Under the pieces are notes generated by a model. The model had not been told where the DNA came from. It searched no databases and saw nothing but the letters and a program-made list of their open reading frames with translations. Both the position numbers and the translations under genes were made by a program. Shown here one piece after another: positions 1,017 to 38,100 of a stretch of 41,545 nucleotides of DNA (positions are counted from its first letter, which is position 1; each line of letters begins with the position of its first letter). The stretch lies in IMG/VR virus record IMGVR_UViG_3300020220_000121, positions 1-41,545 of that record; one strand, given 5' to 3'. The stretch is from a virus. Its lineage: Duplodnaviria; Caudoviricetes.

Positions 1017-1403
1017 TTACGTTTGATGTTTTTCACGGTAATCATTTATGGCTGCCTTGATAGCATCTTCGGCCAACACAGAGCAGTGAATTTTTACGGG
1101 GGGGAGATTCAACTCTTCTACAATGGTCATGTTATCAATCTTCACTGCTTCATCCACAGACTTACCTTTCAGCCATTCTGTAGCCAGGGAAGAAGAGGCA
1201 ATAGCAGAGCCACAACCAAAAGTCTTGAACTTAGCGTCACGGATAACACCTGTAGCTTCGTCTACTTCAATTTGCAGACGCATCACATCACCACACTCAG
1301 GAGCCCCAACTAACCCTGTACCAACACTTGGACTAGATTTGTCAAGGGTACCTACATTACGTGGATTTTCGCAATGATCAAGTACTAAATTTGAATAAGA
1401 CAT
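1017..1403 (-). CDS. iscU: Fe-S cluster assembly scaffold IscU
   Basis: MSYS...DH..NPRNVG, GAPECGDVMRLQI (C37, D39), KFKTFGCGSAIAS (C64), and LPPVKIHCSVLAEDA (HscA-binding LPPVK, H106, C107). Confidence 0.96.
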   Translation of the reverse strand: MSYSNLVLDHCENPRNVGTLDKSSPSVGTGLVGAPECGDVMRLQIEVDEATGVIRDAKFKTFGCGSAIASSSLATEWLKGKSVDEAVKIDNMTIVEELNLPPVKIHCSVLAEDAIKAAINDYREKHQT

Positions 1404-8391: not shown

Positions 8392-8841
8392 ATGCAGCAA
8401 CCCTGGTTCTATAAAAATAAGGAAATCTATAATATAGAAGACTTACCAGCCTACAATAACATCCATGGTTTCGTATATATCATACAAGATACGATAACAG
8501 ATAAGTTCTACGTAGGTAAAAAGGTCCTGCGTAATATTCGTAAAACAAAAATATCAAAGCGTTTAAAAAAAGCTACTAAGACACGTAAGACTTACCAGTA
8601 TATTATAAAAGAGTCAGATTGGAAAGATTACTATGGCTCATGCAAGGAACTACAAGATGACATAAGCAAATATAATAAGCAAAGATTTAAACGCACTATT
8701 CTAGAGTTATGCTGTACTAAGAAGTACTTAAGCTACTGTGAAATAAAGTGGCAGATTAAACTAGAAGTTCTAAATAGAGGAAGCTATAACGGAAACATCT
8801 TGGGCCGTTACTATACCCGGGATATGCAAAACTGTTTTTAA
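8392..8841 (+). CDS. GIY-YIG family endonuclease
   Basis: GFVYII...KFYVGKK, WKDYYGS, a conserved Glu (SYCE) and a C-terminal YN. Confidence 0.75.
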   Translation: MQQPWFYKNKEIYNIEDLPAYNNIHGFVYIIQDTITDKFYVGKKVLRNIRKTKISKRLKKATKTRKTYQYIIKESDWKDYYGSCKELQDDISKYNKQRFKRTILELCCTKKYLSYCEIKWQIKLEVLNRGSYNGNILGRYYTRDMQNCF

Positions 8842-17438: not shown

Positions 17439-17464
17439 AAGGAGGGTATTAACCCTCCTTTTTT
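17439..17464. terminator. Intrinsic terminator between convergent modules, probably bidirectional
   Basis: AAGGAGGGT-ATTA-ACCCTCCTT followed by TTTT, located exactly where the + and - gene blocks meet. Confidence 0.85.
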
Positions 17465-20400
17465 ATCTTAGTCCCATTTCTTTTCTGAAGTCATCATCAA
17501 ATATAGCAAACATATCTTGTGCTACTTTAACCCCTGGTAACATCTTATTAAAGTACTTTATGGGATGAGCATTTTTCATTGTTTTTTCATCTGATAAAGC
17601 AAATCCCATAAGCTGTTTGCTAGAGTGACCAAAGAAGTTGTACATATCTTCTAGCAAACCTGTTACTGGTGCAGGACTTTTTAAAAGTATTCTTGCCTCA
17701 GTAGGATTATAAAAGAATGCAAGTTCATTAAAATACTTGCTAATAGCTCTACCCATCAATCTTTCTGCTGGAGTTTTACCTTTCTCATCATCATCAGATC
17801 TCATCCAGGTAATCATACCTAAGAATGCCAGCAATAGTAAAAGCTCACGTTTCATTGAACGCAAGTTAGCCAAGTACATATCTATAAATTGAGTTTCACT
17901 CATTCTTGTTTCAAAGTTATGGTCACCAGCCTCACGCCTTCTGATTACCATTTCTCTATATCTTTCCTTGGCTCTTTCTATAGCGTTATCACCATAACCA
18001 ACAATCAGTTCACCAACCAATGGTAAAAACTTTTTATCAAAGAAGTGTTTAAAAAATGTACGTGCCTTTCCATAAGTGTATGTCTCAAGCTCTGAGTCAT
18101 AAGACACGTCTCCAAAACGTTCTGCAACCATCTGCGGAATCCAAGATCTGAATTGCATAAAGACCTGACCCATCATACTCATGCGGATCTTGTTTATATC
18201 TTCATGGGTAGCATTGCCGATGATATTCTTGTTAATCTTTTTAATTTTATTTCTAAACAAAGTAACCTCTTCACTGTCACGCTTAAGACCCTCTATTTCA
18301 AATTTACCATTAACAATCTTACTTTTTACTTTAAGACTCCTTGTCTTTTTTAGCTCTTCCACTTCTTTGTCTATCTTATCCATCAAGGCTTTTCTATCTG
18401 CACTAGGAAGATTGTATATCTTTTCATAGTCATTCATCTTCTTCACATAATCGCGGATGTATACAATCTTACCATTGTCATCAACCATATGACTTCTAAA
18501 CATTGCTAGAGCTACGGGTTTAATTACAAGCTTATCTGATATCCTTTGTATAATAAAGAAGTCTTCTGCATTTACCTTTTTTACTACTTCGTTAATAGAA
18601 AGCTGACGAGTTCTGCGGTATAGAGTTTCATCAAGCTCAGGAGCAATATAATCCAGAAAACCAAGAGCTTCTGTATTGCGTGTACTATAGTCTACTATAC
18701 CATTACCCCAATCTGAGTCATTAAAGTACATATCTTTACCTGCAGTAAATGATGCATTAAAAGTACCTCCTACAAGGGCGGCAGTACCTGATATAGGATT
18801 AAACGCTAGAGTTTTTAAGCTAAAGTAGTGCATGATCTTCTGTAGTCCCCTGGTAAGGGATACATCTTTACCAAGCACGTTTATTACTTTGTCCTCAGAT
18901 AGATCAATCTTCTGTCCGTAAATTTGATAGTTAATATGGTTCTCCAGCACTTCTGCGTTGATTGTATTTGAATCAATCTTACCGCCTTTCTTTACTTTAC
19001 CATATATATTTGTTTGTAATGACCCCTTATTCTGTTCTACAAACAAGATAGCATTAACTGAATCTTCTATAGAGCTCATGGCTTTATAGTTTTCAGTATG
19101 AGCTGCCCAGGCACCAAAGACTTTAAACAGGTCAAGAGATTTTTCCTGCCCTAACTCTCTGGTATAGTAGACAGGTATTTCCATTATAGGCTTACCACTG
19201 AGAGGGTCAATCTTGCCAAACTGATTAGCAGAATCAACTGCAATCCCGGACAAAAAGTTTTCTCTTTTCAAAAGGTTGTTATACTCTCCAAAAGCAAAAG
19301 CTTCAAGCTTGGTCTTGTGCAGAGAAGGTATGAATCCAAACTCATAATCTATCATGCCTGCTTTTTCTGAGTCCCTTAAAAGGCTTTGAAAGTATTCATA
19401 TACATCTACTAGTGGTTTATTAACCAATTTACCACTGGTATCTTTTTTATACATCTCCTTATACTTATCACTGTACCATTTCTCAATAGGTTTACGGAAG
19501 TTTCCTTTACTCATAAGCATGGCCACTTTACTCTGGCCACCATTATGAGTTTCAATCCAACGAAGCAATACTTTTTCTTTCTTTTCCTTGTCTTCAACAG
19601 GATCCATAGAGTATATATCACTCATTACTATCTCCTTATACTTTTTGAAAGATGCTTCATAAGCTTCTTTATCAAAGATAGTATTATCTTTAATCCATTG
19701 TATATCACCTTTCTGTATAGCTTTCTTTCTTTCCTGCCTGTACTCATCAGAGTATATATCCAGAAAGTCTGTCCCATTCAAGATGCCGTCAAACATTTTG
19801 TCCTTAGAAATACCTTTGCTGGACGCCCAATCTTCAAGCTTTTCCTTTAACTCACTTAGCTTATCAAACTTCTCATCTATAGTGATGTCTCTGATCTGAC
19901 GAGCTTTAACAAGCAATCTATTTAACAGTTGAGTAGCCGCTGTATCCAATGTAGATAGACTCCTAAAGTTTCTTTTAAGATAATCCATCACACGTTCACG
20001 ATCAAGAATCCCAAATATTCCTTGTGACTTGGCCATCTCATCTGTAAGCTCTTTTGCTTTATTCTGAAGAGAAAGGATAACATCTTGGGCGTTTAACGCC
20101 ATTGTTTTATAATTATCCTGCTGCTTCTCAAGATCTCTTTTTACAACCTCATCTGTTTCTTCTTCTATTTGTTTCTTAAGTCTGACAAGAATTGATTTTA
20201 GATACTTTGAACCATGAGCGTACGCTCCAATAATTTCAACACCCTCAAGAGCTTCTCCTACAGTTAGGTTATTATTTGTGATCTTATCTTGATATTTGTC
20301 TATCTGAATAAGACCACTTTGAACAAAGAACTTCATGTCTTTTTTCACCTGAAGATTACGTATTGTTTTTTTTAATTTGTTAAGCTCAAGATTTTTCTTA

Positions 20401-23165
20401 TCCTTATTTTTTGTAGATCGTTGTGAAATAAGGTCATAGGTAAAGTTTAGCTTTTCAATCAGATCGTCTAGCATCTTATCTCCTGTCGACTCCCTAAGAG
20501 CTACTACCGGTAATAGGTATTCTTTACTTTCAGGAATTAAGGTAGCATCAACCGGGCCAATCTCTATATTCTTAAGATCACTTGGTGCCCAAGTAGTAGC
20601 ATCAAGTCTTATATTTTTGAAGATAGTTCTTATGGGAATTGCTCGTACTTTATTGAATTTTAGTATACCATATTCCTTTTCCAGAGCATCTGTATACTCA
20701 TCCAATTGAATTCTGTAGGCCGGTTCTTTAAACCATTTAAGTTCTGTTTCATTATTCCTTACTTCTTGGCTCTTCCAATCATACACATCTACTGAGCCAT
20801 CCTTTAAAAATGCAATAAGGTCGGTAGTGCCAGGCATTCTTTTTCTTGAGTTATATAGTTTTACTTCAGACATAAATCGTGTTCCACTAGGGTAACTCAT
20901 CAATAAAGATCTTATGTACACATCCAGCTTGGCTTGTATTTCAAGGTTGAATTTGGTTGGGGGAGCAACTAAGGGTTTACTTCTAAGAAGACCGGTGTCT
21001 TTGTTAACATATCTTTCAATCAGTTTGTCTATGTACTCATGCAGCTCTGTTCCGTATTCTGCCTTAATATTGTCAATGATCTTTTCAATATCAGTACGTT
21101 TATCAACTGGAAATTTAGATTTATACCACGGTTTTACAACGTTTTCACTTACAGAGCGTGCAGAGCCATCAGGATTTCTAATCTCTTGAGCATCTACACT
21201 ATACAGGTGTTTTTTTGGATCAAGAGTTATCCTGCTCTGGTCAGCCTTTACTCGGTTGAACAGTTTTGCGGAATAGTCTTCAGTTGAAGAATCCTGAAGG
21301 AACATCTCACTGGAAAGATTGTTTTCATCTAGGTCTGCAATATCATTTTCCAGGATCTTATTAGCTGCTGTTGCAAAAGGGTTCTCTATGGCACCATTAC
21401 GCTTGCCGGCTTTAGCAAACAACTCAGTGATAAATTTCCAGACTTTAGCCCACCATTTTTGAGCTTGTAATACTTTGGTAGAATCATCTATCCCACGTTC
21501 TTGTGTAATTACATAGCTCATAATAAGTTTACCAATGGCTTCTTTCTTTAACTTATTAAAGTTAATAGTACCATCACTATTACGATAAAGCTTGTTGTCT
21601 TTATAGGCAGCTACAACTTGAGAATAGAGCTTGTAGCCGGTAATCTTATCATACATCTCTTTATAAAGAGGTGAGTTTACACCTAGCATTTCCACAAAGA
21701 AGTGGGCTGCTTCTTCAGGCAGGGTAGTAATATCAGCCTGACCTTCTACCACCTGGATGATTTTATTAAGCATATCAGCTACGGCAATACCTGAAAGAGG
21801 TTTGCCTTCACGGTCTTTCAACTGGTTGACCGTTTCCAGACGTATACCGATAGAACTTAAGAAACGTTTGATCTTGTTATCAATGTTCTCATCAGGAGCC
21901 TGCTCACTTTGACGCTCCTGTTGCTGATATATATTCCCTGTTTGTTCAGAATAAGTACCTTGGTTAAACAAAGACTTTATCTGATTAGGTTCATATACAA
22001 CAAAGTTATCTGCACGTTCAGGGTCAGCTATATCTTTAAGAATAGCACCATCTACATTTTTATTTTCAGCACCCTGCTTAACAAGCTTGGATACTTCCAT
22101 TAACGCTCCTCTACCATCCGCCTGCATTACAAACGGTTCACCATTAAAGTTCTTTTCTACCGGTGACTTTACATTTAAGAAGACAGGCATAAGGTTAGGT
22201 GTAAACCCACCGTTTTTAATATCCTGTTCTACCTTATCTCTTCCTAGTACAACTACTTTACGTAAACCTGAAACAAACGTATCAAACTTCTGAGAGCTTA
22301 ATGACGTAATATTTCTTCCAGTAAACTGAGCTAGTTCTGGTACAGCATTTATTTTTCCATTTATCACACCATCTAAAGTTAAATACACACTTTCATAGCC
22401 TAAACTATAGCTTGTATTAGAATCAATTCCAAACTTGGAAACACTTGTATACTTACCAGAAAGTATAACCTGTTTATTCTTTTCAAGTTTGTTAACCTCA
22501 TTTTCCATGTCATTGTAATACCTACGTGGATTGGAAATACTTCCTCCACCTGCGTAGTCACGTTCTAATGATCTATACTTCTGAGCCAACACTTTAAGGT
22601 TCTCCATGATTTGTTCCTTGGTTAAACCTTTGGTTTTTAAACCATCTATGTAAGCTGCAAACTTGGGTGACTCTTTACGTAGATTATCATATACCTCCTG
22701 TCTTCTTTTTTGATCCCATGATAAAGTGGATGTAATTGTTTGTAGAGAAGAAGATATCAACATAAGTTCCTGCTGGCGTGCCATGATAGCATAGTTGAAT
22801 GCTACGTTCTCATTATTAGTAAAGAAGAATGCATTTTCAGCATCAAAAGATTTACTACCATCAGCCGAACGACCGGTAGTAGATCCTCTAAGTTCTTTAT
22901 CAAACTCAGCAAAATCAGACCCAGTACCATGGAATACTAACAGTGGCTCACCATTCTCGTCCACCACTTTAGACCCTTTACCTGATTGCCAGTCTCCAAA
23001 CCATCTTTTGAAAGAAGGAGTGTACACCTGGGCCCAATGTCTTAAAGCTTGCTCTTTATTAGAGACAAGCTTATTAATAGATTGAAACAAGTTAGAAGGC
23101 TTACCATTAGGAGCAGTAACCGAAGTTATTTCTCCGGCATTATTACGGAACACTTGACACGACAT
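17463..23165 (-). CDS. 1900-aa polyvalent virion cargo protein: ART-like domain, zincin-like domain, PD-(D/E)XK nuclease and helical C-terminus
   Basis: ART-like: FKRWFGDW, SKVVDENGEPLLVFHGT, FFT....A..YA, MPVFLNVKSP and FVVYEPNQIKS (~21940-23030). Zincin-like: EEAAH (21702-21716) with downstream KEAIG. Nuclease: GTTDL...VYDWKS...YRIQL (~20690-20835). Confidence 0.75.
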   Translation of the reverse strand: MSCQVFRNNAGEITSVTAPNGKPSNLFQSINKLVSNKEQALRHWAQVYTPSFKRWFGDWQSGKGSKVVDENGEPLLVFHGTGSDFAEFDKELRGSTTGRSADGSKSFDAENAFFFTNNENVAFNYAIMARQQELMLISSSLQTITSTLSWDQKRRQEVYDNLRKESPKFAAYIDGLKTKGLTKEQIMENLKVLAQKYRSLERDYAGGGSISNPRRYYNDMENEVNKLEKNKQVILSGKYTSVSKFGIDSNTSYSLGYESVYLTLDGVINGKINAVPELAQFTGRNITSLSSQKFDTFVSGLRKVVVLGRDKVEQDIKNGGFTPNLMPVFLNVKSPVEKNFNGEPFVMQADGRGALMEVSKLVKQGAENKNVDGAILKDIADPERADNFVVYEPNQIKSLFNQGTYSEQTGNIYQQQERQSEQAPDENIDNKIKRFLSSIGIRLETVNQLKDREGKPLSGIAVADMLNKIIQVVEGQADITTLPEEAAHFFVEMLGVNSPLYKEMYDKITGYKLYSQVVAAYKDNKLYRNSDGTINFNKLKKEAIGKLIMSYVITQERGIDDSTKVLQAQKWWAKVWKFITELFAKAGKRNGAIENPFATAANKILENDIADLDENNLSSEMFLQDSSTEDYSAKLFNRVKADQSRITLDPKKHLYSVDAQEIRNPDGSARSVSENVVKPWYKSKFPVDKRTDIEKIIDNIKAEYGTELHEYIDKLIERYVNKDTGLLRSKPLVAPPTKFNLEIQAKLDVYIRSLLMSYPSGTRFMSEVKLYNSRKRMPGTTDLIAFLKDGSVDVYDWKSQEVRNNETELKWFKEPAYRIQLDEYTDALEKEYGILKFNKVRAIPIRTIFKNIRLDATTWAPSDLKNIEIGPVDATLIPESKEYLLPVVALRESTGDKMLDDLIEKLNFTYDLISQRSTKNKDKKNLELNKLKKTIRNLQVKKDMKFFVQSGLIQIDKYQDKITNNNLTVGEALEGVEIIGAYAHGSKYLKSILVRLKKQIEEETDEVVKRDLEKQQDNYKTMALNAQDVILSLQNKAKELTDEMAKSQGIFGILDRERVMDYLKRNFRSLSTLDTAATQLLNRLLVKARQIRDITIDEKFDKLSELKEKLEDWASSKGISKDKMFDGILNGTDFLDIYSDEYRQERKKAIQKGDIQWIKDNTIFDKEAYEASFKKYKEIVMSDIYSMDPVEDKEKKEKVLLRWIETHNGGQSKVAMLMSKGNFRKPIEKWYSDKYKEMYKKDTSGKLVNKPLVDVYEYFQSLLRDSEKAGMIDYEFGFIPSLHKTKLEAFAFGEYNNLLKRENFLSGIAVDSANQFGKIDPLSGKPIMEIPVYYTRELGQEKSLDLFKVFGAWAAHTENYKAMSSIEDSVNAILFVEQNKGSLQTNIYGKVKKGGKIDSNTINAEVLENHINYQIYGQKIDLSEDKVINVLGKDVSLTRGLQKIMHYFSLKTLAFNPISGTAALVGGTFNASFTAGKDMYFNDSDWGNGIVDYSTRNTEALGFLDYIAPELDETLYRRTRQLSINEVVKKVNAEDFFIIQRISDKLVIKPVALAMFRSHMVDDNGKIVYIRDYVKKMNDYEKIYNLPSADRKALMDKIDKEVEELKKTRSLKVKSKIVNGKFEIEGLKRDSEEVTLFRNKIKKINKNIIGNATHEDINKIRMSMMGQVFMQFRSWIPQMVAERFGDVSYDSELETYTYGKARTFFKHFFDKKFLPLVGELIVGYGDNAIERAKERYREMVIRRREAGDHNFETRMSETQFIDMYLANLRSMKRELLLLLAFLGMITWMRSDDDEKGKTPAERLMGRAISKYFNELAFFYNPTEARILLKSPAPVTGLLEDMYNFFGHSSKQLMGFALSDEKTMKNAHPIKYFNKMLPGVKVAQDMFAIFDDDFRKEMGLR

Positions 23166-23186
23166 AGGGTACTGATTTATTTTATT

Positions 23187-26100
23187 TTATCCTCTTTTAC
23201 AACCTCCATCTAAGTTCTTAAGAACATCATCTACTTCGGAACTTGTATTTAATCCTTTACTTACTAAGTCCAGTAGAACATCAGCACTTACAGGAGCTGT
23301 TTCTGCAGGTCCAGTTCTTACCTCATACTCTTTAGGAAGAATAACATTCTCAGGAATACTAATTACATTATAAATTCCTTTAATAACATCTTTGATTTCT
23401 TCAATAGAATATCCAGCTAAGTCACTTCCCAACTTTGTTACATAAAATTTGTACTGAGGATTATTATAAGCAAAGTCTATAAAAGTACTTATATCTCTTC
23501 TTATATTATCAAGAGAAACACTTCTTTTACCTCTAGCTAAATCTTTAGTTACAATTGCATAAGATTGTCCTTGTAAACCTCTAGCTTGACCTTGCTTAGC
23601 ACCAAACTTTTGTTTAGCTGTAAGAGCAGCACCTAACCCATGTCTACCTTCTGTATTAGATCCAAATACAAATACCTCATTTGGTTTAAGAGAAGTAATA
23701 TTTTCTGGTGTATACTCTCTCTCAACACCCATCACGTCAGGAGCTTGGGTAGATATTACTCTTTTATATGCTTCAATCAAAGTTTTTAGAAATATGTTAC
23801 CCGTATTTGATGTCCAACTGTTACCTTCTTTCTTTTGATAAGTTTCTGGATTATCTGATGTATTATACGTATGTATAGATTTTTCTAAAAATTCTATACC
23901 ACCTCTTTTAGTTATTTCGTCTACTAAAAATGGGTATTGTCTTAGTTTAGCTTCTTCTAAATCTGTTATAAGTTTAATATTTTCAGGCGTAGCACCTTCT
24001 TCTTTTCTAAGGCTGAAATAAGCTTCTTCTACATCTTTATAGGGTTTGCCATTAAATTTAATTCCCTTATCTAGTTCTTTATATATACCAACAAGTTTCC
24101 CCTTAGAACTAGAGGTTCCTCCTCTAGGATTATAATGTGTGGGATTGGTAAGAGCTGCACCTAATGGGTCATTAGAACCACTAAATATATTTATACCCTT
24201 AACACTTACAGGAGCTTTCTTATCAGAAACAGATGTAGCTGCAGGTTTGGCTACAGACTTTACTACCTGACGCTTAGTAACATCATTCAATATAGATTGT
24301 AGTTTATCCTGCCATCCTGGATTAGCAATGTTGATTACAGGTATACCCTTACGATAAGCCATATCGATAGCCTGATTAGTTCCGCCACTTTCAGGACGTT
24401 GTCCCTGACCTTCCCATCCAGATTTGTCATAAGCTATAACAAAGTCTACAGGAGTATCTAGGTTTTGGCCAAATATCTGGTTGGTGTTGCGGGCCATGAG
24501 CTCAATACCACCCTTAATACGCTTCAGAGCTTCAGGATTAGGATGAATCTCAAGAGCTATCTCTTTGCTTACATCTGTAGCATCTTTAGGATAGAATACA
24601 TTCTTTTTCTTAGCAGTGTTTCTAAAGACAGCATCCGCTCCTTTGGCATTGCCTGTATTGACAGTAAAGCCCATATTCTCTAGCTGAATTACTATCTGCC
24701 TAAGAATGTTAAGAATCTCTTCAGGAGTTTCTCGTGATCCAATGCCAGCATAAGTCATGCTAGCTATTGAATTATCTTTTCTGGGAAGCTTGTCAAACTG
24801 TGGCGTATCTGAATCATCAAAAGTTTGTTTCATGTACTCTATATGTTGATATACTGCATCTTGATGTAAAGACTCATCTATCTTCTCATTTAGGGTTTCA
24901 AATCTTGATTTTCCAGTTATAGGATCACCAGCTGAAGTCTCCAGTACATACATACCATTGCCAAGCATATTGATAGGTCGGTATGCAATCTTAGGTTTTT
25001 TGTCAGTAACATCTTCTCCATCTTGAATAACTGTAACCTTTTCAAATAAACGTGGAGTGTACAGATTATCAGTATTTTCAATTAAACTATTTGGAATAAG
25101 CAATTCACCAAAGAAAGCTTTGGCTCTATCTTTTAACATCTTATGAGTAACACCTTCTTTAGGAACATATACCTTTACATAGTCATATGCAGCCATTTTG
25201 TTTTGACGATTAAGAATTAGTAAACCATTAGAAATAGTTGCCTTCTTAAGCTTAATTGTAGGTACAATGTTATTGTTTTTGGCATAGTTCTGGTGAAAAG
25301 CTCTCCATATAGCTTTGACATCAATTGGATGCATACTATATGTATATGACCTGAAAATCTTGGCAGCTGTATCTGCGTATAACGCAAGAGGCATGACCTT
25401 TGTAAAAGTGATAGGGCTCAGTTGAAGACCTGACTGCAGAATGGTAAACTTAACTAGATTATCAACAAACTTTTGCAGATCCATATCACCATTAGCTTGA
25501 GCCATAGTATGAAGTGTTTCCAATGACTCACTAATTAGATTAATATCATACGCAGACATTTTGTTATTGAATAACTTTATGTTATCTGTAGCATTTCTAT
25601 TGTCATTTATTATTGGAAACAGATTCTTAAAAGCATGATTATTAGGATATCTTTCCTTCAGTACCTTAAGCATTTTAGGAAGTGAGATTCCATCTTTACT
25701 ATCCTGAAACAGGTCGTAGTTCATGGCTATGGCCTTCTCTTTTCCATAAGGTGTATTTTGCAGGATGTATCCAAGAATAAATGACTGATACCTGTTTATC
25801 AAATCTGCTTTGTCATCATTAGATATAAACAACTCATTATCATCAAGCTGCTTCATAAGAGGATCAAAAACAGGAAGTGTTTTAGGCTGAAGGCTTACAA
25901 AGAACTCAGCAAACATGTTTTCTATATCGTCCTTAATTGACTTTATACTACTAAGGAACGATCTTTGGAAAACCCTATCTACTGAAGCTTTGGTTATAAA
26001 ACCATCATTAAGCATTTTATTGTATCTGAGCTTTTGTATCCTGTTTTCAATCATGCTCTTTGTACGAGAGGTGTCATAAGATATACCCTTAATAAAGTTA

Positions 26101-29100
26101 CTTAAAAGGTTTGCTTGGTCACGATAGTCAAGCATGTCCATCAACATGGCAACCTGCATACCCGCTTGCTTTTTATTAAGCTTTCCTGAGTTCTTGATCA
26201 TGTCAACCATATCAGAAGACTTATATGAACTATAGTCATCTCGTAAAGCTTTGAACCTATTCATTGTCCTTGTAGGATATTCATCCACAGGAATAACCAG
26301 ACCGGTAGCCTGCTCATAATACTTTTTAGCTGCCTTTAAAACTACTTCATTGAAATACAAGTAGTTATCATTTACTTCTGATACATAAGTCCGATTTGTA
26401 TCACGAGCTTTAAAGAAGTCATCTATAGCTGGTTGATTAAAGAAAAGAGCAACGTTCTCCTGACTGACCCCGCGTTTGGTCAGATAGAACCAGGTACTTG
26501 CTGTTTCTAGGTTAAGTCTCAGCTCATATATAAATGGATCCTTGGCAGCATCCACAGATCCAGACAATGTCTCTGACAACAGGTCAAAAATAAACTGACT
26601 CTCAGAGTCTATAGTTAGATCTAGCTTAAGTGTATTGCTATTTGGCAGTTTAATATTTACGTTCTTGGTTTGACCATCGCTATTTTTGTAAGAACCAGAT
26701 AGCTCTATCTCACCTATTTGTGCCATTGTGTGTGAGGTAATCTGAAGAGCCCCTACACCAACAAGCTGTTTTGATGTAACAAAAGTTTCACGAGTTTCAG
26801 CCATTGATCTCCACTCTGAAAGTTTAGTCATATCATTTTCCACCTGACTAGTTCCACGAAGAGATATAATCATCTCAGAAATACTCTTCAAACGAGCTGT
26901 TGAGTTTGGAACAAGAAGCTGCCTACGGTTAGAAGGATGTTCAATAATAGACTTCATTATTTCTATAAGCCTATTCTGAAGTGACTTCTTACTATTTTGT
27001 TTGCTAAGAGGAAGTTTAGAAAACTCCTCTAATGACTTCAACCCATTTAGACGAGCCATTTCTTTGGCCATATCTAAGTATATGGACTGCATCTCTTCTG
27101 AATTGCTTTCAACCAAGTCAACTATAGAAAGCTGCTTGTTTGACTTTATCATGTCTCGGAGTTCAGATTTACGATTCCTAAACGTGTCTAGTATATTCTT
27201 GTAATGTTTTTCAATAAGTTCCTGCTTAAATCCAAGTACATGAAGTTCCTCCTGGTACAACTTTATCATGTTGTCTAGTGTAGAATTATCATCCGTAAAT
27301 ATGTCAGACTCACGCATCATAACAGCATGCTCTAGATAAAGCTGTATCTCACGAGGTCCTTTTATATCTTGGGCAATAATATGATTCTTAACATTTACAA
27401 ATGTAGCTCTAGTTTCATCAGTAAGATTCCAGTAGTGTTTCTTACCTGAAGCAAATAAATCCTTAAAGTGCTGATCTGTATCTTTTTCAATGGTCATAAG
27501 ATTTTCCTTTGACTCACGGTAGTCATTGTACAAGGAATTCTTCCGACTCTTATAGTTGGTGTCAGCTTCTGTATTGATTCTATCAAGCTCTTTTTTAAAG
27601 TTTTCGCGTAGGGAAGCACGTTCATCAGCACTAAGAGCATACATCAGTTTACGTAGATCCTCATCTACAACACGGTTTACATAGTTGATATAACGTTCAT
27701 TAAGCTCGTTTTCAGATGTTGAATATTTTACATACACTAACTCCCCGTTACGACCAATCTTATAATTAGCCAAGAACATGTTGAGTTTATCTATGTCGAA
27801 GTCAGTTCCAGACTTTCCTACGATTTCTGATGGAACTACAACGATATCACCATAGCTTGGGTCTAAGAATCCCTTTATACGGATAGATTCAATAGCATTA
27901 AAGCCTTGAGTAGGAATACGGAAACCTATTGCCGTTAGCAATGTTTCCATAGCCTCAGGAGAATTTGGCGTCCATATGCCTTCTTTTAAACTAAAGCCCG
28001 CCTTTTCAGGAGATATCCCTTCAAAATACCAGGGGATGTAAACTTCCATATAACCATTCTCACCATCATAAAATTTAAGATCACCTGAAGAAAGCATAAC
28101 TGTTTTCTTTTCTTTAGCCGTAAGCTTCTCAAAATCAGTGACTTGCTCGTATTTGTCGTTCTTTAAATATACAAGATTACGTTTTCCTTTCTCCCACATT
28201 GTAGAGGCCACTTGCACAGATGACTTACCAAACATCTCCATTCTGATTATGCGGGTATCCACCATGGCTTGAAGAACAAACTCTATACGTTCTCTGGCAG
28301 GATTAGCATCAAAAGGATACTTTAGCTGCTCACCTAAATCTTTTACAAAATAGGTATCCATCATGTCTATAACATTGTCTGGCATACCTCTGCGAATAGC
28401 TTGCTCACGCATCGTGCTCATCATTTTGCTGAGATCTTTAGAAGTATATACACCATCTTGCTCATTTAAACCAAGTTCATTCAGCAACTGTTCCCTTTCT
28501 CTTAAAATCAGTTCATCTATTACTGCCATGTACTCTTCCTTAAATGGTTCAAGTTCTTTTGGAAGATTGGATAAAATGATCTTACGAACCTGGCTACCGA
28601 AGATAACCATATACCTCGCATAAGATGGTATCTCAACTTGAATACCTACATACTTAGATATGATATCCAGCTGTTTAGGTATAGCACTATTCACAGACCC
28701 GTCTTGATTGTACATACTTACCAGGGACCCATCAGGGTTTGTAACAGCCCCAACTTTATGTCCACTAATGAAATTAATTACGTCTGTACCTGTATTCTGT
28801 GCATCTATATACTTAGCAAGCATTGTAGGATTATGCTTAACTCTATTCCAAGTAAGTGGAAACACTGAGTTCTTAAGCATGTTCACGTGAGTCATGCCAG
28901 GAGTCATGGCAAAACCAAAACCCTGTGGCTTCAAAGGTTGTAGTACAGCATCAGGTTTTGGCTGAGCAAGTATCTCACGAGCCTTTTGAACTTGATCATC
29001 CTGATATCTTTTATGATAAAGGTGATTAGGATCATTACGGTCTACAATCTCCTGAGCATTTTCATAGTTCAACAAATCTTCCTGATCCTTTGTCAAACTG

Positions 29101-32100
29101 CTAGACAGGTACAAAAGATCACGGAAGTAATCCGGCATAATATAAGACTGACCATCAGACTCAGTTATATTGGCATAAGAAACCAATAATGATCCTTTCT
29201 TAATGTTTAATTTCTCAAGCTTGCCATCTTTGGTAAATAATGCACCAAGCAGATCCTCTGCCTTTTGCTTTCCTATAAAAGGCTCAAAGCCTTTAAACAG
29301 TGCTTCTGCAATGGAAGTAAGCTTCTGACTAATTATTTCTGGATCATCATAAGTAAGAGATTTCACCACAGGATGCTGTGTATCTCTGGTTCTTCCATCA
29401 TAGCGAGGCTTGGTCTGATTCATAAGATTTATGACATCAGTATTTTCCGACACAGAGTTCTTTTGAGAGTTAGCACCACCGGAACGCTTAGCAAGCTCTT
29501 TATACAAAGCAGGATGACCATAAAAAAGTTTATGCTGTTCAAATACAGCAAGTTGACGGTTTACAGTTAAAAAGGTAACAAGTTGATCATATCTTAAATC
29601 ATTCATACTCAATACTTCATCTCTCATTAAGATATTATCTGCAGGAATAGATAGAGTATTATACTTACCGGTTGCTTCATCTTTTATCACAATCTCACGG
29701 CTCAACAACCATTGTTTATGCTCAGCTACCTGGGCATTAATATATTTTCTTATAGCACCTTCATTCCGTACTGTACTTACAAAGTTATCAGCTACTGTAT
29801 TATATAGCTCCTCAACAGCATCACGCTTCATCTTTTTAGTAACCTTGGTACTCTTTACCAGGTCATTGAAATAGTTCTGTAGTTTAGAACCTCTTTCATC
29901 ATTAGTAAAACCAAGAATGCCTGAGAAATGCCCAAGCATCAGTATTCTATTTTGATGATCTTTAATATGATTTGGAGAAAAATGAAAGGTCAATGCATGC
30001 ATAACCTCATCACGCAAAGCATCTAGGTACTTATCTTCTATAAGCCTTATATTGTTTATATCATCCGGCTTTATAAAATAACCCATATTAATACCAAACT
30101 CAGATGATTTATCAGAGTTAATAATACTGAAATAAGTACCCCTCATGATATGATATATCTCTTGGGTAATCTTGTCACTGAAGGTTAGGTTATCAGTGTT
30201 ATCCCCCTCATTGGTCTGGTCAGATGCCAAACCTTGGATGTACTCATACTTCAAGGTTTTAAGTTCACCTGTCTGACGATCAAATATCTTATTACCCTTA
30301 GCATCAAAGAATAGACCACCAGGCTTCAAGATTTGAGACCTCCTTTGATAAGGATTCAATACAATGACACCGTTATTAACCGTTCCGTACTGAGGATTAG
30401 AAGCAATAAACTCCTCAAGAGTTTCAACACCTGCCATTGAGTTAATAATGTTTGTTATCTCAGAAGGCAGTGTTATTGCATACTGAGTTTTACCATCAGG
30501 TGTCAAGTGAGATAGCAAGGTATCTTCACTACGAAGATTAGCTTCTATAGCAAGAAGTGAGTTTAAAGGCCCCTCAACCGTTTTACGGTCAAAGAACTCA
30601 CTATACATGAAAGGTATAGTCTTAAGCTTACGATCTTTAAGAACGCCTCTCATACTATTAAACGCACTTTCAATATCACTTTGGTCAGCCCCTGACAGTC
30701 TTTCTGAAGGAACAGAAAACTTAATACCCAAACGAGATAAAGCCTCTAGCTTTTCTCTAAAGTTGGATGCATTCAAAGCAATCTCAAGCTTTTTGCTTTG
30801 GAGGTTTACCTCTATAAATCCTCCTGGATTAATGTAGATCAGATCTGCACTAGCCAAGTTATTTATATCAGACTTAAGAGCTTTGTCTTTTACATTACTC
30901 CTCCACTCTTCTTTAATTTTTTGAACCGTATTTACAGAAATGGCATCCACATGACGTAGTCTTCCATCTTTACCTACAATAACCTTCAGAGGAATATTTC
31001 TGTTACGATTAAATGCATTTTCAAAAGCAAGGAGCAGTCTGAGCTCATCGTCTGTAAGTCTTTGACCTTCTTTTAGTTGATCATATTTAAGACGCTTTAA
31101 CATCTTAGAAATCCACTCAAACCCAGGCTTGAATCTGGACTTGTGAACTGGATCACTATATTTATCTGTTAGCTTCTGAACCATACTATCCAGTGCACTG
31201 ACAGAATTAAATGTTCCATCTGCCTGTTTCTTTTGTACAGGAACTATGTTACTAAGCTCATTTAAAAGAATATTCATCTTGCGTTTATATGCAACAAGAC
31301 TAGTCAAACCAAGCTGGTTCTTTTCTTTATCTATTACTTTACCGTCAACATCTTGTTTGTCTGATGTCAAGGATAAAATGAGCAATCTTACCGAAGGGTT
31401 GGTCAATGTAGTAGGATCAATGTATATAGTATCCTTTAAGTTGAAAGAGTTAGCCAGTTCTTCTTTGTTAATCAGCTCTTCTATAACATCTTCATTTAAA
31501 TTGCCAATAGGAGAGGAGGCATAAAAGTTCTGGTCATCTGCCTTTACTTTGCTGAATGACAACCCAAAATGAGTGAGATATCTTTTGAATTGATCTTTAA
31601 CCTCTGTATTGAATGTCTTCAAAACAGCATCTTTCATTTCAAATAAAGGGTCCTGACCATTCATCCAGGCTTTATACTTGCGGATTTCTTCAGTCTGGCG
31701 TTCTGAACTTTCACCCTGAAACTTCTCATTGTTTAAAATAACCTTAAGACCCGGGTTGAAAGTATTAAATACCTTATTGTAAGTCTTCTTGTAGTATTCA
31801 TCAAATAGTTTGTTGTTCTTATCAAACAACTGCTGTATATTGAAATCATTACTATATAACAGATCAAAGAAGGTTGCTGTCATACCTTCCATAAGAGCTT
31901 GTGTAAACTCTACAGACGTGTCCTTTATAGCTTTGTTGTTTTTTAACGTTGGATCATAGCTTGGAAGAATACTTTGATTCTTGAACCCACCAGAAGCTAT
32001 TTTAGAAAATACAGATTGTATTCTGGTATCAAGCTCCTGCTTTATATCACCAAGACCCAAAAGTTCTTTGATAAAGTTCCAAAGTTTTCTAAACCAGATA

Positions 32101-35100
32101 TTGCGTTTAGGAGACTGCTGCTTGATATTAGCTCCACGGTTAAGCATATAGTCTCTAAACTCCTCAGCCAAAGCTTCCTTTATACGACCAGATTCAGAAC
32201 GGTATGGATAGTTTGCTACAGCCCATTTATAATGGGATTGAGTATTCCATTCAGGACGATTTTTATACTCAGCAATCATTGCCTGCTGTTGCTCAGAAGT
32301 TAAAAGAGCATTCCATACAGCTTCAAAAGCTTCATGGAAACCAGTACCAGCTTCTGCATTTTCATACAGTCTAACAGAACCATTATAAAACTGGCCCATA
32401 TAGCGACCATCTATCAATGAATCAAAGACATCAACCATAAACTGAGGCAATGTTTCTTTCATCCACTCTTTAAACTCAGCTATATCTTCCTTAGAGACCG
32501 CCTCGGGGTTGTTTACACGAGCGTTTGGATCTACATCATTATCTTCCTGGATGGCATTTTGAGCCATCCTTAAATACTCACTAGCGTCATCAGTTTTTCC
32601 TTTTAAAGCAGCTAGTTCTGCATCATACTTTTTAAGAAGTTCTAAAAACTTTTCAAACTTTTCTCCGCCTTTCTCATCAACAACCTTATCTGTTTCAGAC
32701 TTAATAGAATTAAGCTTATTTACAAAATCTTTTCCTAATGCAGTTTTAGCACTGGTAATTATTTGTTCTTGTGATAAAGGTTTACCCACTATTTCATAAT
32801 CACCTGTTTTATCATTAAATTTAGCCACAACCCATCTACCAGTATTATCAATAGTGTAACTGCCCTTCTCTCCAGTTTTATTATTTTGAATTCTTATTGT
32901 ATATTCTAAGTTTCCACCTGTTGGTAGAAAAGTTTCTAATACTTTGTAATCAGAAACAGAAACTACACTATTTGCCTGCTGAGTTTTGGCCTTGTATTCA
33001 GTACGGAGCTGCTTTTGAAAGATATCACTAAACTCATCCAAAGATAAAGGTGACTCACCATTAGCTTTGGTATAAGATACATAACTATCATATTTGTCTG
33101 CTACAAAAGCATCAAACTTGGGATCTTCTACAGGAACAGAAGCAACAGGTACATCTACCGTAGCAACTTTCGTAGGTGTAACAACTTTATTGCCTTTATT
33201 GGCAAAGTCCTCTATACTAAAAAAAGTACTGGTTAATTGTGATATAACATCATCCTGTAAATTCTTCTTATCTGCAGTTACAACACTAAGCAGTTGATCA
33301 TCTGCATAACTAATAATAGAGTTTATTCCCTCCTCATTAGCTGACACCAAATTAGCTAGGTTAGTAAAATCAGTCCCATTTTCATCCACTATCTGAGTGA
33401 CCTTGTATTTACCATTAACATATTCAGCATGAACATATAAATTAGTAGTACCATCTGCTCTCTTTCTTACAAAAGTAAGCTTTGGACCTTTGGGAATATT
33501 ATTGGTAATAGTGTACATAACATCCCCATTTGGAAGCTTGGTTGAGGATTGGTTAATTCCATATGTCTTGATTCCTCCTGCAGGAACATCTGCTTTTGGT
33601 GCATCATTAGCAACTACTGGTGCTTCCTCCTCCAATATACCAGTTGTTCCATATTTTAGGTAAACGTTTTTAAGCTGATAATCTTGAGGTTCAATATTGT
33701 CTGCTTTGGGTGCTGTATAAGGTTTAATGTTTGTGTATATAATTGAACCGCCTTCACGATCAGCAAGAAGGTAATGTTGATAATTAACATACTTAGTACC
33801 AGGTATTATTTTGCCATCAATTACCTTGATCTCCGTAAAAGCATTGTTAGCCTTCTTATCAGAAAGCATTGTGTTGTTAACTTTATGATAAGGTACAGCC
33901 TCAAGTATGGCGTTACGATTATTTTCAATACTCTCCGCAGTAAACTCAATCTTGTTATTTCCAAAATGCAAACCATTCTTTACCCACATCTGAAAAGAGT
34001 AGGGAGCAAATCCTTCTTTTGGAGAAAACCAGTGTGCTACACCTTGGAGATATTTTATACCTAATTGGAACTCAGTATCTTCATCAGGACTCATAAGATC
34101 TAAGGCCTTCATTTCAAAGAGCTCAGCCATACGTTTAAGAACATTAATCAGATTATCATGCTCTTGTTCATTAAACTTTCTGTTATATACAAGAATGCTA
34201 CTATTAGGATCATTCTCTTTGACCATTAGCAGCCTACCGGCTCTTACTTTACCACCATTAAATGTGGATACAGTCAATTTTACAGATGACCCATCGGGGT
34301 GGCGAAGGTTAGAAAAATCAGGATTATTTTCAATAAGTCTTCCTTGTAGAGAAAGCTCCTGGGGAAGAAGATCCCCTGAGTCAGTAATCCCCAAAGGCTC
34401 TCTATTAAAAATGCCAGGTGATTTATCCTCTATAGGTAGAAATACAGGTTCATTATTTTTGATACGTTCCTTTACAGTCTCGCGAAACTTTTTGAATCTA
34501 CTGACTATAGCCAAGGCTTCATTATCAGAAAGCTTATTCTTATTTACAAAGTTCTTTTTTAACCAAGACAGTATCATTGCCGTATCTGAAGACATCAAAC
34601 TAGGATGACCCAGCATGGCAGTATAGATCATGTTATCCTTGGTAGGATTTTCAAGTATATTGCCTGCAACATCTACTGGACGGAATACCCCTGAGCTGTC
34701 TCTTTTGACCACAACCAATCTGATATCATCATCATAGTTAACAGTGTTACCGTTCTCCTGCCAACTAGTTATCCTAAGATCCTGAAACTCTTTTGAATCC
34801 TTGGTAATCGGCATAAAGTAGTAGACAGTACCATTATTATTTCTTAGTGTAGTTCCTTCAGTAAATTTGAAATAACGAGCGTCCTCTGGAGAATTCAGCT
34901 CGGTATCTTCTAAGTCAGCAAAATGCAGACCTGCCGATTTAAACAAAGCTGTTTCAGAAAGAATAGGTATTCTTCCTTCTACTGTAATAAAGCTATCCCT
35001 TTCATTCTGACTATCGGGAATAATGTCTTCAATTACCTGAGTTGTTAATATAGCATCAGGTCCTTTGATAAGATCATCAGCTACAGGATTACTTCCTACA

Positions 35101-38100
35101 GAAATAATTATCTTATTGCCTTCTTGTTTAACACCAGCCCGCTCCCTGCGTATCTTGTACTGACGAATAATCTCGTTCTGTATAAGATCATACATTGATA
35201 TACGTTTCTTAGCTTGGGCAATTCTATCTCGATCTTCCTTTGCAGTGTATAACCTAAGAAGCTTCTCTTCAGTAGCTTGCAGATTGTTAAGTATGTCATT
35301 AAGTTCACGCCTATATTTACCATATCTATCTGCAATATCAAACAGATATGCGGTCTCAATAGAGTCGGCCTTTTTGACCAAAAGATTAATTACGTTTTGT
35401 ACGATCTGTTTTTTATCAGGATTGCTCTCCTGACGTTTGATCATATTCAACTGAAGAAGAAGTTGCTGTTTGTCATCAATGTTCTCAAGAGCATCAACTA
35501 TATCAGGAACCTGGTCAAACTTGCTTAGTTTGTTTAAACGGTCAAGAAGATCGTTAAGTACAGCTATCCGCTCGTTTAATACAGCAATTTCACCCTCTGT
35601 ACTAGCAATCATCTGATCGAGCTTCTCATTAGATATGTTTCTTTTGGGCTTAATAATCTGATTCTTCTGCTCTAACTGATTAATCTCCTGAGTCAGTTCC
35701 TGAGGAACAATGCTGCCTGTCTGGTCTCTTGTATATGGAACACCGGTTGACTTAAGCTCAGTAATACCAGCATCATAAGCTTCATAGATCTTTTCTATAG
35801 TATCTAACTCTTTCTGCAGGTTCTCTATTTCAGTTTTATATGACTTAATAGCATCTTCAGTCTTAGCAATCAATCCTACAAGCTTTTGCTGAGCTTCCTC
35901 AAGACGCTTTCTTTCTTTGGTCTTGGCTCCTTTTTGTTTTTTGGGAGGAAGCTTAGCAATATCCTGCTGGATTTGGTCCATCTCTGTGAGATAGCCAGCC
36001 AGTTCTTCCCTGAGGGCAATATACTTTTGTTCGTTTTCTTTCTTTTGCTCAGATACGCTATCAAACTTTTGAATTAGTTCATCTAAAGCTTTGCTTAGAA
36101 TATCTATTTGAGTCAGTCTTCTTTTCTCATTGGATCTTTTAAAGTACTCTTCCTCAGACTCCGTTAAGTCAAAGAGACTGCTTTTGTTAGAACCATACTT
36201 CTTAATATAATCATTGTTATACTCAAAAGAATCAGTTTTACCTGTTACCGGATTTGTATAGACAACTCTTAATATATATTCAGAAGGTTGTTCTTGAGGA
36301 GCTGTTTCATAACTTGAAGTTCCGGTTTCTTCATCAAATACCAGAACTGGTTCATTACTTTGTGGCTGTTCCTCTTTTGAAAGTTCAAGCCTTGCCTTTA
36401 CAACAACCCCACTAGATGAGTAGTCTTTGTTTGCATGAGGTCCTAATATGAGATGCCTCTTACCAGAGTTAGCACGGACATTCAAATCAAAAACCATATT
36501 TCTGTTACGGAAATAAATACGTTGCTCGGGAGTTAACTTATCCATCGGATACAGTTTCCCAATTGCTGCAAATTCCTCATTGGAGAGATTTATCACCTCA
36601 CCATCATTGTTTACTGTAAAACTTACAGAGTCATCATTAATATTTACAATTTTGATGATATCTTGTCTATATACGATAGTTTTAACACTGCGTCCCTTGT
36701 AAACTCTTGATTCAGGTACAGACTGAGTAATATACTCTTTACCTTCTTGTATACCAAGTTCTTTATTTACCTTATCAGATTGATTATCAAGTTTATTTAC
36801 TTCTTCCTTTAATTTCTTTTCCTCCTCTTCTCTTTTTTTCTTAAGACCATTTATAATATCTACTTCAGCTTTATGCTTTGCTATAAAATTATTCTTACCG
36901 TTTTTATTGTCAGCATAGAAAGCCCATGCTAATCCTTGAGACTTAATCTCATTTAACATCTGACCTTTTTTCTGCAAGTATGCATCAAGAAACTGTCTAG
37001 TTAAAGAGTCATTACGTTCTTCTTTTTCATAGAGATAAAATCCATCTTTGTCTTTTTTCAGATCTGACACAGTTGTCTCATTATCTTTTAACAGTTTATC
37101 ATAGGTCTGATTAAGCTCTTCCAATAAGGTTTCATAAACACCCATTGGTGCAGCTTTGTCTTGACCAGATGTTTTCAGATAGTCAACAAGTTCCTTTTGG
37201 AACTCCATACGATAAAGCAGCTGATTAAGCTGATCTACCATACCATCAGAGAGTGAAGAGTTTTCTGAGTTAATAAACTGATTCTTTACTTCAGACTCTT
37301 CTGCTTCAATAATAGGAAGCTGATGTTTAGCAACAGCTTGTTTTGCTGCAAGATTTGTCAAGAAATACTTACGAGCCTTATCTTCTCTAGAGTTATCAAA
37401 CAGTATACTTTCATTAAGTATTTTGTTCTGCTTGATAATTGTTGAAGCTAAGCTCTTATGCTTTTCAATATCTGATTGGAAGTTTTCATCTGCAACAAAA
37501 CCAAGCTTAGCTAGATCTTCAGGACTTGCTGTTTTAAGAGAGTCCAGTTTATCCATCAAAGTACTTTCTAATCCTGAATTTATATGTGCTTGAACAAACT
37601 CAGAGAAAGCACTAAGTCTAAGATAGTCTCTTGTGTATTTGTTCTTAGTGTTATCAGCATCAGTCAACATATCAGATGTTGTCTGTATACCAGTTACTAC
37701 AGAGTTAAGTTTCTCTTCATCTATAACAGGTTGATTGTTTTCATCTAACACAACTCTGTTAGAAATAATATCATTACCGTTTGAGTCTTTTGATTTAATC
37801 TCTTCAGTCTTATATATATTTCCAAACTTAAGCCAGTTTTCTTGAGCATCGGTATATGCTCGTAGTGCAGCTTCAGAGTTTAGTTTCTGCTGTGCTCTTT
37901 CCCCTCTACTAAATAATAAGTTAGATCCACCACCAAGAAGACCACCAAGACCAATGTTCATTGAAGCCTCAGGATCGTCTCCTTTAATAGCAGCAACTGT
38001 TTGCGTACTATACTGATCAAATAAATCACGGAAGTTATTTAACTCAAAGAAAGAAGAAACTTTACCCTGGCTACCGTATCTTTCATTAATACGTTGTATA

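What the first reader, a model, noticed from the sequence alone, without database searches (positions are those of the whole stretch)
21940..24760. Candidate virion-delivered ADP-ribose toolkit: SLOG, NADAR and macro-like modules on the RNAP tail, next to an ART domain in the following gene
Seen: four separate nucleotide/ADP-ribose-related domain signatures lie within ~2.8 kb across the junction of the two giant genes. Three end the 5405-aa RNAP protein and one begins the 1900-aa protein. Known: crAss-like cargo proteins are ejected with the DNA. NADAR and macro (DarG) domains reverse DNA ADP-ribosylation by the anti-phage toxins DarT1 and DarT2. SLOG and macro domains are the ADPR-signal sensors in Thoeris ThsA proteins. 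Inference: the phage delivers a writer (ART) and erasers or sponges tethered to the enzyme that first reads its genome, so it could counter ADP-ribose/NAD-based immunity before any phage gene is expressed. It could also mark and unmark its own DNA. The individual domains are known in polyvalent proteins; I am not aware of this arrangement being characterised.
Basis: partly seen in the sequence, partly recalled or inferred. Interest (0 to 1): 0.9.

Follow-up and report, generated by a model that had tools for sequence, protein, structure and literature searches.

The report
Swappable ADP-ribose erasers on phage polymerase

Summary
Observation confirmed. The 5405-aa ORF is a crAss-like virion RNA polymerase. 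Its tail holds a DprA-type SLOG domain (sequence profiles only), a NADAR-fold domain and a DarG/TARG1-like macrodomain; the last two keep the predicted catalytic residues. The next gene opens with a split ART-PolyVal domain.

The "coordinated toolkit" reading is only partly supported. The tail is a hypervariable cassette: the exact triple occurs in 1 of 114 homologous tails, the ART comes and goes independently, and no Thoeris link appeared.

New here: in one lake run the NADAR module has about half the depth of its flanks, and other modules enter at the same breakpoint. A 471-bp, 91% identical copy lies in frame in the tail of a DUF3127 (SSB-like) gene of an unrelated phage, absent from 49 of 50 orthologous loci.

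Best reading: virion-delivered, ssDNA-tethered erasers of DarT-type marks (50%); activity and packaging are untested. The scan found similar tails before on other crAss-like genomes. New variant of known polyvalent proteins and AdfN/AdfM.

The parts
23187..39404 (-). crAss-like virion RNA polymerase polyprotein, 5405 aa; catalytic Asp motif at about 27803-27789; conserved core ends near aa 4866
24267..24761 (-). SLOG domain, DprA/Smf-like type; kept at this place in 9 of the 10 best-scoring RNAP homologues (self included); codon usage like the core (GC3 0.32)
23742..24209 (-). NADAR-fold module of the phage (His) type; Glu5126, Arg5133, His5178, Trp5197; GC3 0.15; swappable slot with breakpoints near 24203 and 23743-23765
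23750..24217 (-). 471-bp block 91% identical to an in-frame insert in a DUF3127 gene of an unrelated phage (L003, L169, L170); the only DNA the two share
23307..23711 (-). DarG/TARG1-like macrodomain (NCBIfam A1S_2505, PHROG 2072); Asn5250, Lys5287; GC3 0.10
23190..23306 (-). short C-terminal cap ending near a Cys, as in most homologous tails whatever modules precede it
17463..23165 (-). second cargo-type protein, 1900 aa: conserved head, ART slot, zincin-like region (by eye), PD-(D/E)XK-like domain, long conserved C-terminal part
22980..23165 (-). 62-aa head also present in orthologues that have no ART
22791..22979 (-). ART-PolyVal, N-terminal half; His79 kept, Phe114 at the strand-2 Tyr position
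22203..22790 (-). ~190-aa mostly helical insert inside the ART; present in 16 of 43 aligned ART regions
21966..22202 (-). ART-PolyVal, C-terminal half; Asp372 conserved, Asn387 where 9 of 43 orthologues have Glu
20655..21092 (-). PD-(D/E)XK exonuclease-like domain of the second cargo protein (outside the finding)

Best explanation
The end of this crAss-like virion RNA polymerase gene is a slot for exchangeable accessory domains, and the NADAR and macro domains now in it are predicted hydrolases that likely enter the host with the genome and likely remove the ADP-ribose that DarT1-type (guanine) and DarT2-type (thymine) toxins put on single-stranded phage DNA. Steps: (1) shown: the domains, their folds and kept active-site residues, the turnover of modules among relatives, within one population and between unrelated phages. 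(2) Inferred from homologues: the polyprotein is packaged, ejected partly unfolded ahead of the DNA and refolds. (3) Inferred: fusion to a polymerase that prefers single-stranded templates, or in the other phage to an SSB-like protein, keeps the eraser where DarT acts. (4) Inferred: modules move by recombination in the short linkers, and varying host defences keep several alleles in the population. The SLOG domain is an older, steadier member of unknown chemistry (ssDNA or adenine-nucleotide binding). The ART in the next gene is a separate polyvalent-protein effector, most likely aimed at host proteins, not the partner of these erasers.
For: Macro fold nearest DarG/TARG1, with Asn 61/67 and Lys 47/64-67 conserved at positions that match DarG N22/K80 by motif (PMC13309987 legend). 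NADAR fold with Glu 18/18, Lys/Arg at +7 17/18, His 18/18, Trp 13/13, the pattern described for NADARs, His being the phage type and Lys-to-Arg active in vitro (PMC11543638). Stand-alone phage versions AdfN and AdfM are proven anti-DarTG factors. DarT modifies ssDNA, and AdfN was proposed to need a localising partner; phi14:2 vRNAP prefers ssDNA; the same NADAR sits in a DUF3127 protein, a family matched to SSB. Cargo packaging and ejection in crAss phages. Cassette behaviour; low GC3; half-depth NADAR and alternative entries at one breakpoint.
Against: No activity, packaging or host was tested. Residue equivalence rests on alignment and motif position, not on a superposed active site. NADAR Z-scores are middling (7.7-8.4) and no profile library recognises it. 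50 of 114 homologous tails have no module at all, only 12 a NADAR and 3 a macro, so the tail is dispensable. 57 of 77 loci of this macro family are small genes, not fusions. Stand-alone NADARs active in vitro often fail against DarT1 in vivo (PMC11125620). Other tail modules (AlkB, SF1 helicase, DUF7831, ASCH-like, DUF4326-like) point to a broader repair or nucleotide role. DUF3127 as SSB rests on one paper's annotation and an acidic tail.
Confidence: 0.5

Rival explanations
1. The three domains act together on soluble NAD-derived signals or toxins (cyclic ADPR variants, ADPr-1''-phosphate) made by host immunity, as sensors and degraders delivered early.
For: Iyer et al. 2022 predict this for viral SLOG+Macro+NADAR(+DUF4326) fusions (passages). 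The triad recurs in other proteins: P0127, P0125 and the 468-aa stand-alone P0265. DUF4326-like modules occur in sister tails (weak Pfam E 0.11). SLOG and macro genes are neighbours in N4-like phages.
Against: Later experiments on phage NADAR and macro proteins showed DNA de-ADP-ribosylation. A soluble target needs no tether to an RNAP or SSB. No ThsA-type profile hit.
Confidence: 0.2
2. The tail is a general kit for repairing modified DNA or RNA around the first transcription complex, of which ADP-ribose removal is one case.
For: The same slot holds AlkB, SF1 helicase and ASCH-like modules in relatives; the SLOG is DprA-like and weakly matches the ShosA and PsyrA antitoxins (E 1e-4, 7e-4).
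Against: The two modules folded here match ADPr hydrolases specifically; rapid allele turnover suits conflict better than housekeeping. This overlaps with the best explanation.
Confidence: 0.12
3. The erasers work late, in the producing cell, when the polyprotein is made; the tail may be trimmed before packaging and never be injected.
For: DarT2 blocks genome packaging when AdfM is missing (PMC13309987). Polyproteins are thought to be cleaved, and a neighbour carries a zincin-like domain.
Against: A late role would be served by a small stand-alone gene, the common form of this macro; repeated fusion to the vRNAP tail (17 of 77 loci) suggests delivery matters.
Confidence: 0.1
4. The ART in the next gene and the tail erasers form a writer-eraser pair that marks and unmarks the phage's own DNA.
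For: Adjacent genes; ART His79 and Asp372 kept; ART-NADAR toxin-antitoxin pairs exist (YarT-YbiA).
Against: ART in 51 of 114 orthologues; 0 of 7 ART pairs with NADAR or macro, 1 of 12 non-ART pairs with macro (small numbers, pairing inferred from equal contig lengths). The NADAR seems absent from about half of one population whose ART region is at full depth. ART-PolyVal is predicted to modify proteins. Tyr replaced by Phe, no last-strand Glu.
Confidence: 0.05
5. The modules are neutral passengers that land in tolerant C-terminal linkers.
For: They are dispensable, polymorphic, AT-rich and cross phage lineages.
Against: No mobility enzyme; active-site residues invariant; 22 synonymous against 12 non-synonymous codon changes between the two NADAR copies; the cargo is drawn from a narrow functional set.
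Confidence: 0.03

Closest known systems
Polyvalent proteins of phages (Iyer et al. 2017, PMC5512222), including N4 vRNAP fused to ART and MPTase
   Same: Giant head-packaged multidomain proteins with unrelated enzyme domains; ART-PolyVal; RNAP fusions (passages).
   Different: That paper's main text has no NADAR or SLOG and no crAss-type RNAP term searched; here the RNAP is the crAss DPBB type and the cargo are erasers in a C-terminal slot.
AdfN (T4 gp30.3), phage NADAR against DarTG1 (PMC11825919)
   Same: NADAR fold with His in place of the last-strand Glu; phage-encoded orphan antitoxin-like enzyme.
   Different: AdfN is a small stand-alone gene; this one is too distant for Pfam NADAR or Phage_30_3 (only an ESM lead at 0.87-0.88), has no tblastn relative among 50,697 phage records, and is fused to a vRNAP or an SSB-like protein.
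AdfM (PhiKZ gp104, T4 tk.4) and DarG2 macrodomain (PMC13309987; bioRxiv 2025.11.20.689424)
   Same: DarG-like macro fold with the Asn and Lys of the active site.
   Different: Shorter family (A1S_2505 / N4 gp14-like), 16-19% identical to DarG in structural alignments; no DarT-binding C-terminal domain; fused to a cargo protein.
Viral SLOG+Macro+NADAR(+DUF4326) fusions (Iyer et al. 2022, PMC9503650)
   Same: Same domain trio in DNA viruses, proposed early counter-defence.
   Different: Described as mostly stand-alone or small fusions acting on soluble ADPr; 'crAss' and 'vRNAP' do not occur in the main text.
phi14:2 gp66 and PhiCrAss001 gp47/gp49/gp50 cargo proteins
   Same: Homologous RNAP core; adjacent giant cargo genes.
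   Different: No such accessory tail is described in the passages read.

Membership tests
crAss-like virion RNAP | Homology to phi14:2 gp66 with the catalytic Asp motif | tested here: met
   E 2e-17 to 6vr4; motif at aa 3868
crAss-like virion RNAP | Packaged in the virion and ejected | not testable with these tools
   Shown only for homologues
NADAR superfamily | YbiA fold | tested here: met
   Z 8.4, rmsd 3.1, 122 aligned to 2b3w; Z 7.7 to 8bau, the only rows covering this part; middling scores
NADAR superfamily | Catalytic Glu, Lys at +7, last-strand Glu/Asp/His, Trp | tested here: met
   Glu 18/18, Lys 14 + Arg 3 of 18 (Arg here), His 18/18, Trp 13/13; equivalence by motif,
Pfam NADAR PF08719 / Phage_30_3 | Profile score above cut-off | tested here: not met
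   No hit at E up to 1; own profile links to Pfam-type NADAR modules at E 1e-3 only
AdfN-type anti-DarTG1 enzyme | Removes ADPr from guanine in ssDNA and rescues phage | not testable with these tools
   Needs assay
Macrodomain, DarG/TARG1 type | Macro fold | tested here: met
   Z 11.5 to DarG 5m3i; Foldseek TARG1 prob 1.0
Macrodomain, DarG/TARG1 type | Asn and Lys equivalent to DarG N22/K80; Gly-rich loop | tested here: met
   Asn5250 61/67, Lys5287 in 47 rows, Gly 58/58; equivalence inferred, spacing shorter than in DarG
DarG2 antitoxin | Second, DarT-binding domain and a darT gene alongside | tested here: not met
   Only a 39-aa cap follows; no PADLOC DarTG hit
NCBIfam A1S_2505 family | Profile above cut-off | tested here: met
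   122 bits against 45
SLOG superfamily (DprA/Smf-like) | Profile similarity | tested here: met
   PHROG 768 E 6e-38; Pfam DprA E 1e-4, below cut-off, N-terminal part only
SLOG superfamily (DprA/Smf-like) | Rossmannoid SLOG fold | not tested
Thoeris ThsA sensor (SLOG or macro) | ThsA-type profile, effector fusion | tested here: inconclusive
   No Pfam or PADLOC ThsA hit; ThsA macro aligns at Z 8.0, below DarG
ART-PolyVal (PF18760) | Profile above cut-off | tested here: met
   51-64 bits against 31.2
ART-PolyVal (PF18760) | His in strand 1 | tested here: met
   His79, 39 of 43
ART-PolyVal (PF18760) | Tyr in strand 2 | tested here: not met
   Phe114; Phe in 15 of 16 insert-bearing orthologues, Tyr in 19 of the other 27
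ART-PolyVal (PF18760) | Asp in strand 5 (H-Y-D) | tested here: inconclusive
   Asp372 in 37 of 43 and Asp381 in 16 of 16 of the insert clade; which one the paper means was not established; Asn387 at the PARP-like Glu position
ART superfamily | ART fold | tested here: inconclusive
   Model pLDDT 88; NatT Z 6.9, tankyrase 6.7, AcrIF11 6.5, ParT 6.5 among unrelated helical rows of like Z; no Foldseek hit at E 0.001
Polyvalent protein | Several unrelated enzyme domains in one invasion-delivered polypeptide, variable architecture | tested here: met
   Architectures; delivery itself not testable

The most novel reading that the evidence does not exclude
crAss-like phages use the tail of the injected RNA polymerase as a rotating counter-defence rack: single eraser domains are exchanged by recombination at short linkers, several alleles coexist in one population, and the same domain is grafted between unrelated co-occurring phages onto whichever protein handles single-stranded DNA (vRNAP here, SSB in a jumbo-type phage). 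Tethering to ssDNA would be the missing localising factor of phage NADARs, and the tail would be a readable catalogue of the base modifications that host defences make, including unknown ones.
Probability: 0.35. Interest if true: 0.8.

Novelty: new variant of a known kind. Interest (0 to 1): 0.6.

Why it matters
Known phage erasers of DarT marks (AdfN, AdfM) are small genes expressed after infection. Fusing them to the packaged polymerase would give protection from the first moment and at the site of the damage. The tail's turnover offers a shortlist of candidate anti-defence domains, several unnamed, in a dominant phage group; a classified gut crassvirus (cr50_1) has the same macro on its RNAP. 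The natural NADAR-SSB and NADAR-RNAP fusions make one open question directly testable: why AdfN works poorly outside its own phage and was proposed to need a localising partner (PMC11825919).

Tried and rejected
Profile searches of the NADAR module (Pfam, NCBIfam, PHROG, PADLOC, PDB sequences) gave nothing; tblastn against 50,697 phage records gave no match. Foldseek against PDB gave no row at E 0.001 for either model, and in BFVD no gp30.3 row appeared in the 50 listed, the macro part filling the list. Profiles of the macro and SLOG against PDB sequences were not significant. No close RNAP relative in IMG/VR. Profile comparison of the DprA-type SLOG with a whole cpYpsA-bearing protein was uninformative. 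The first automatic clustering of tails merged some modules through shared end-caps and was replaced by seed profiles. No RNA holder listed. No complex prediction was sent, as no binding is claimed. Chimeric assembly of the DUF3127-NADAR fusion was considered and rejected: three assemblies hold it, Logan contigs bridge both junctions in runs X1, X7 and X9, and the reading frame returns to the gene's own acidic end; these runs may be one sampling campaign. My notebook's '~250 bp exact' is wrong: the longest exact run is 176 bp. Literature: searches found no paper describing these domains on crAss RNAPs; NADAR, macro and ADP-ribos terms were absent from the main text of PMC7886860 and PMC12386605, and macro and ADP-ribos from PMC11054128. 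Figures and supplements were not seen (Fig. 3 of PMC7886860 marks domains in this gene block), and the 2018 crAss family paper was not consulted, so prior mention is not excluded.
Full report
Setting. The window is a linear virus record, about 32% complete, held by 13 lake-water runs at half its words or more, of 15 listed. It has a replication block (DnaB, primase, DNA polymerase) facing two giant minus-strand genes of 5405 and 1900 aa, 21 bp apart. The larger matches phi14:2 gp66 (E 2e-17), so it is a crAss-like virion RNA polymerase.

After the conserved core come a SLOG-like, a NADAR-like and a macro-like domain, and the next gene begins with ART-PolyVal. I folded the two least certain modules together (pLDDT 88). 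The macro part aligns best to the DarG macrodomain (Z 11.5, tied with PARP9 at 10.8) and the NADAR part to YbiA (Z 8.4) and Phytophthora NADAR (Z 7.7). In the alignment, the NADAR keeps Glu 18/18, Lys/Arg seven residues on 17/18, His 18/18 and Trp 13/13; the macro keeps Asn 61/67 and Lys in 47 rows. These match the catalytic patterns in PMC11543638 and PMC13309987 (passages), by motif position and not by superposition. The SLOG rests on profiles only and is DprA-like; weak PADLOC hits are ShosA and PsyrA, not ThsA.

The ART is real but odd. It passes the Pfam cut-off in two pieces around a ~190-aa insert shared by 16 of 43 aligned ART regions. His79 and Asp372 are conserved; the strand-2 Tyr of the family's H-Y-D signature (PMC5512222, passage) is Phe; the last-strand position that is Glu in 9 of 43 is Asn. 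The model's nearest rows are mostly ART-family folds at Z 6-7, no higher than unrelated helical rows. Activity is open.

The tail is a cassette. Of the best 120 RNAP homologues listed (221 found), 119 had a locatable core end, with tails of 19-989 aa. Among 114 tails of 30 aa or more, the window's own included, 50 carry no recognised module, 17 a named SLOG type, 12 a NADAR type, 3 a macro, 9 DUF7831, 7 an SF1 helicase and 2 AlkB; the exact triple is only the window's own (names; ASCH and DUF4326 labels are weak, E 0.002-0.11, or by eye). P0123, nearest in the core, stops after the SLOG; P0004 (72%) has SLOG plus two other modules. In a search with the tail itself, 63 of 151 proteins also had RNAP core hits, and SLOG, NADAR and macro recur together in P0127, P0125 and P0265. 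The macro family is mostly small stand-alone genes (57 of 77 loci; 17 in RNAP genes). NADAR and macro have GC3 0.15 and 0.10 against 0.32 for the core and SLOG, as expected of later arrivals.

The ART is not tied to the erasers. It occurs in 51 of 114 orthologues of the second gene. Of 19 RNAP/next-gene pairs inferred from equal contig lengths, 7 have the ART and none of these has a NADAR or macro tail; 1 of the other 12 has a macro. The numbers are small, but nothing favours a writer-eraser pair.

Exchange caught in the act. In run X1 the flanking contigs have depth 84-87 and the macro 84-95, but window-type NADAR contigs only 40.5 and 49.4; a joint skips 23765-24231 at depth 28.5, and contigs in X1 and X13 leave the window at 24203, and in X13 at 23743, into other sequence (tables cut, depth is per contig). 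Read by hand, ten codons at each point stay in frame and resemble the start of cpYpsA-type SLOG modules and the end of ASCH-like modules printed; this is a by-eye reading of single contigs. So about half of that population likely carries another module in the NADAR slot.

Transfer between phages. L003, L169 and L170 share with the window one block only: 471 bp, 91% identical, the NADAR. There it lies in frame in the acidic tail of a DUF3127 protein, in a ligase/guanylate kinase/Nudix block syntenic with contigs of about 270 kb. 49 of 50 orthologous loci lack it (two are truncated). Contigs bridge both junctions in X1, X7 and X9, and in X1 both phages are present, the shared block summing their depths. 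The upstream breakpoint is the same as in the window's own polymorphism. Of 152 codons, 22 differ synonymously and 12 not, with one change in codons 59-128; that may be recent recombination or collapsed assembly bubbles. The insert is AT-rich in both phages, so the direction is unresolved. DUF3127 is annotated as SSB in one paper (PMC8004638, passage).

Mechanism. DarT1 and DarT2 modify ssDNA, and stand-alone phage NADAR (AdfN) and macro (AdfM) proteins reverse this (passages). AdfN rescues foreign phages poorly and was proposed to need a localising factor. crAss vRNAP is packaged, ejected ahead of the DNA and prefers ssDNA (passages). One NADAR fused once to a vRNAP and once to an SSB-like protein fits an eraser held at ssDNA. 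I put this at 0.5; soluble ADPr signals (PMC9503650, passages) at 0.2; general repair 0.12; late action 0.1; self-marking 0.05; passengers 0.03. Against my reading: no assay, no known host, middling NADAR Z, in vitro active NADARs often fail in vivo (PMC11125620, passages), and most relatives do without.

Novelty. Polyvalent proteins, SLOG/Macro/NADAR fusions and AdfN/AdfM are known. Six searches found no paper placing them on crAss RNAP tails, but figures and supplements were not seen. ShosTA papers were seen as listing and abstract start only. This scan noted like tails on at least seven other genomes, read after my own reading was formed; nothing on the DUF3127 fusion. Verdict: new variant of a known kind, interest 0.6, mainly for the within-population swap and the cross-phage graft.

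Noticed in passing
L170:5590-6558 (also L003:3763-4725, L169): DUF3127 (SSB-like) gene of a phage related to ~270-kb contigs carries the window's NADAR in frame in its acidic tail; 49 of 50 orthologous loci lack it.
   Followed up: yes
window 24203 and 23743-23765: Alternative modules enter the NADAR slot in Logan contigs of runs X1 and X13; whole alleles not recovered.
   Followed up: partly
window 23700 (run X1): One contig leaves the macro after its first few codons and, read by hand, continues with what looks like the macro's last motif: a possible empty or deleted macro site in a relative.
   Followed up: no
window 23357-23517: A joint inside the macro in X1 (depth 10) and X13 suggests a divergent macro allele.
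   Followed up: no
window 21900-23165: The top structural row for the head-plus-ART model is phi14:2 gp66 itself (Z 7.5, rmsd 2.3, 90 residues, chain range 2-1976), and a cyanophage ejection protein also appears (Z 5.8); unexplained.
   Followed up: no
window 22203-22790: A ~190-aa helical insert in the ART, confidently modelled, goes with Phe and Asn at two active-site positions in a clade of 16 orthologues; it may change or block the target.
   Followed up: partly
P0113, P0118, P0060, P0065, P0004 tails: Several recurring tail modules have no Pfam or PHROG name (one is PHROG 9995, unknown): candidate new counter-defence domains.
   Followed up: partly
L002:2956-17280: Gut crassvirus cr50_1 protein annotated 'DNA helicase' is a vRNAP with this macro family and an SF1 helicase on its tail.
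   Followed up: yes
window 1017-1403: NifU/IscU-like Fe-S assembly gene beside the endolysin.
   Followed up: no
window 8392-8841: ORF matching PHROG 447, labelled 'NAD synthetase' (E 4e-32), and a homing endonuclease family; the label is doubtful and was not checked.
   Followed up: no
phage records H2-H31: N4-like phages carry the same SLOG and macro families as neighbouring small genes (DprA-like and gp14-like): cultured systems in which to test them.
   Followed up: no
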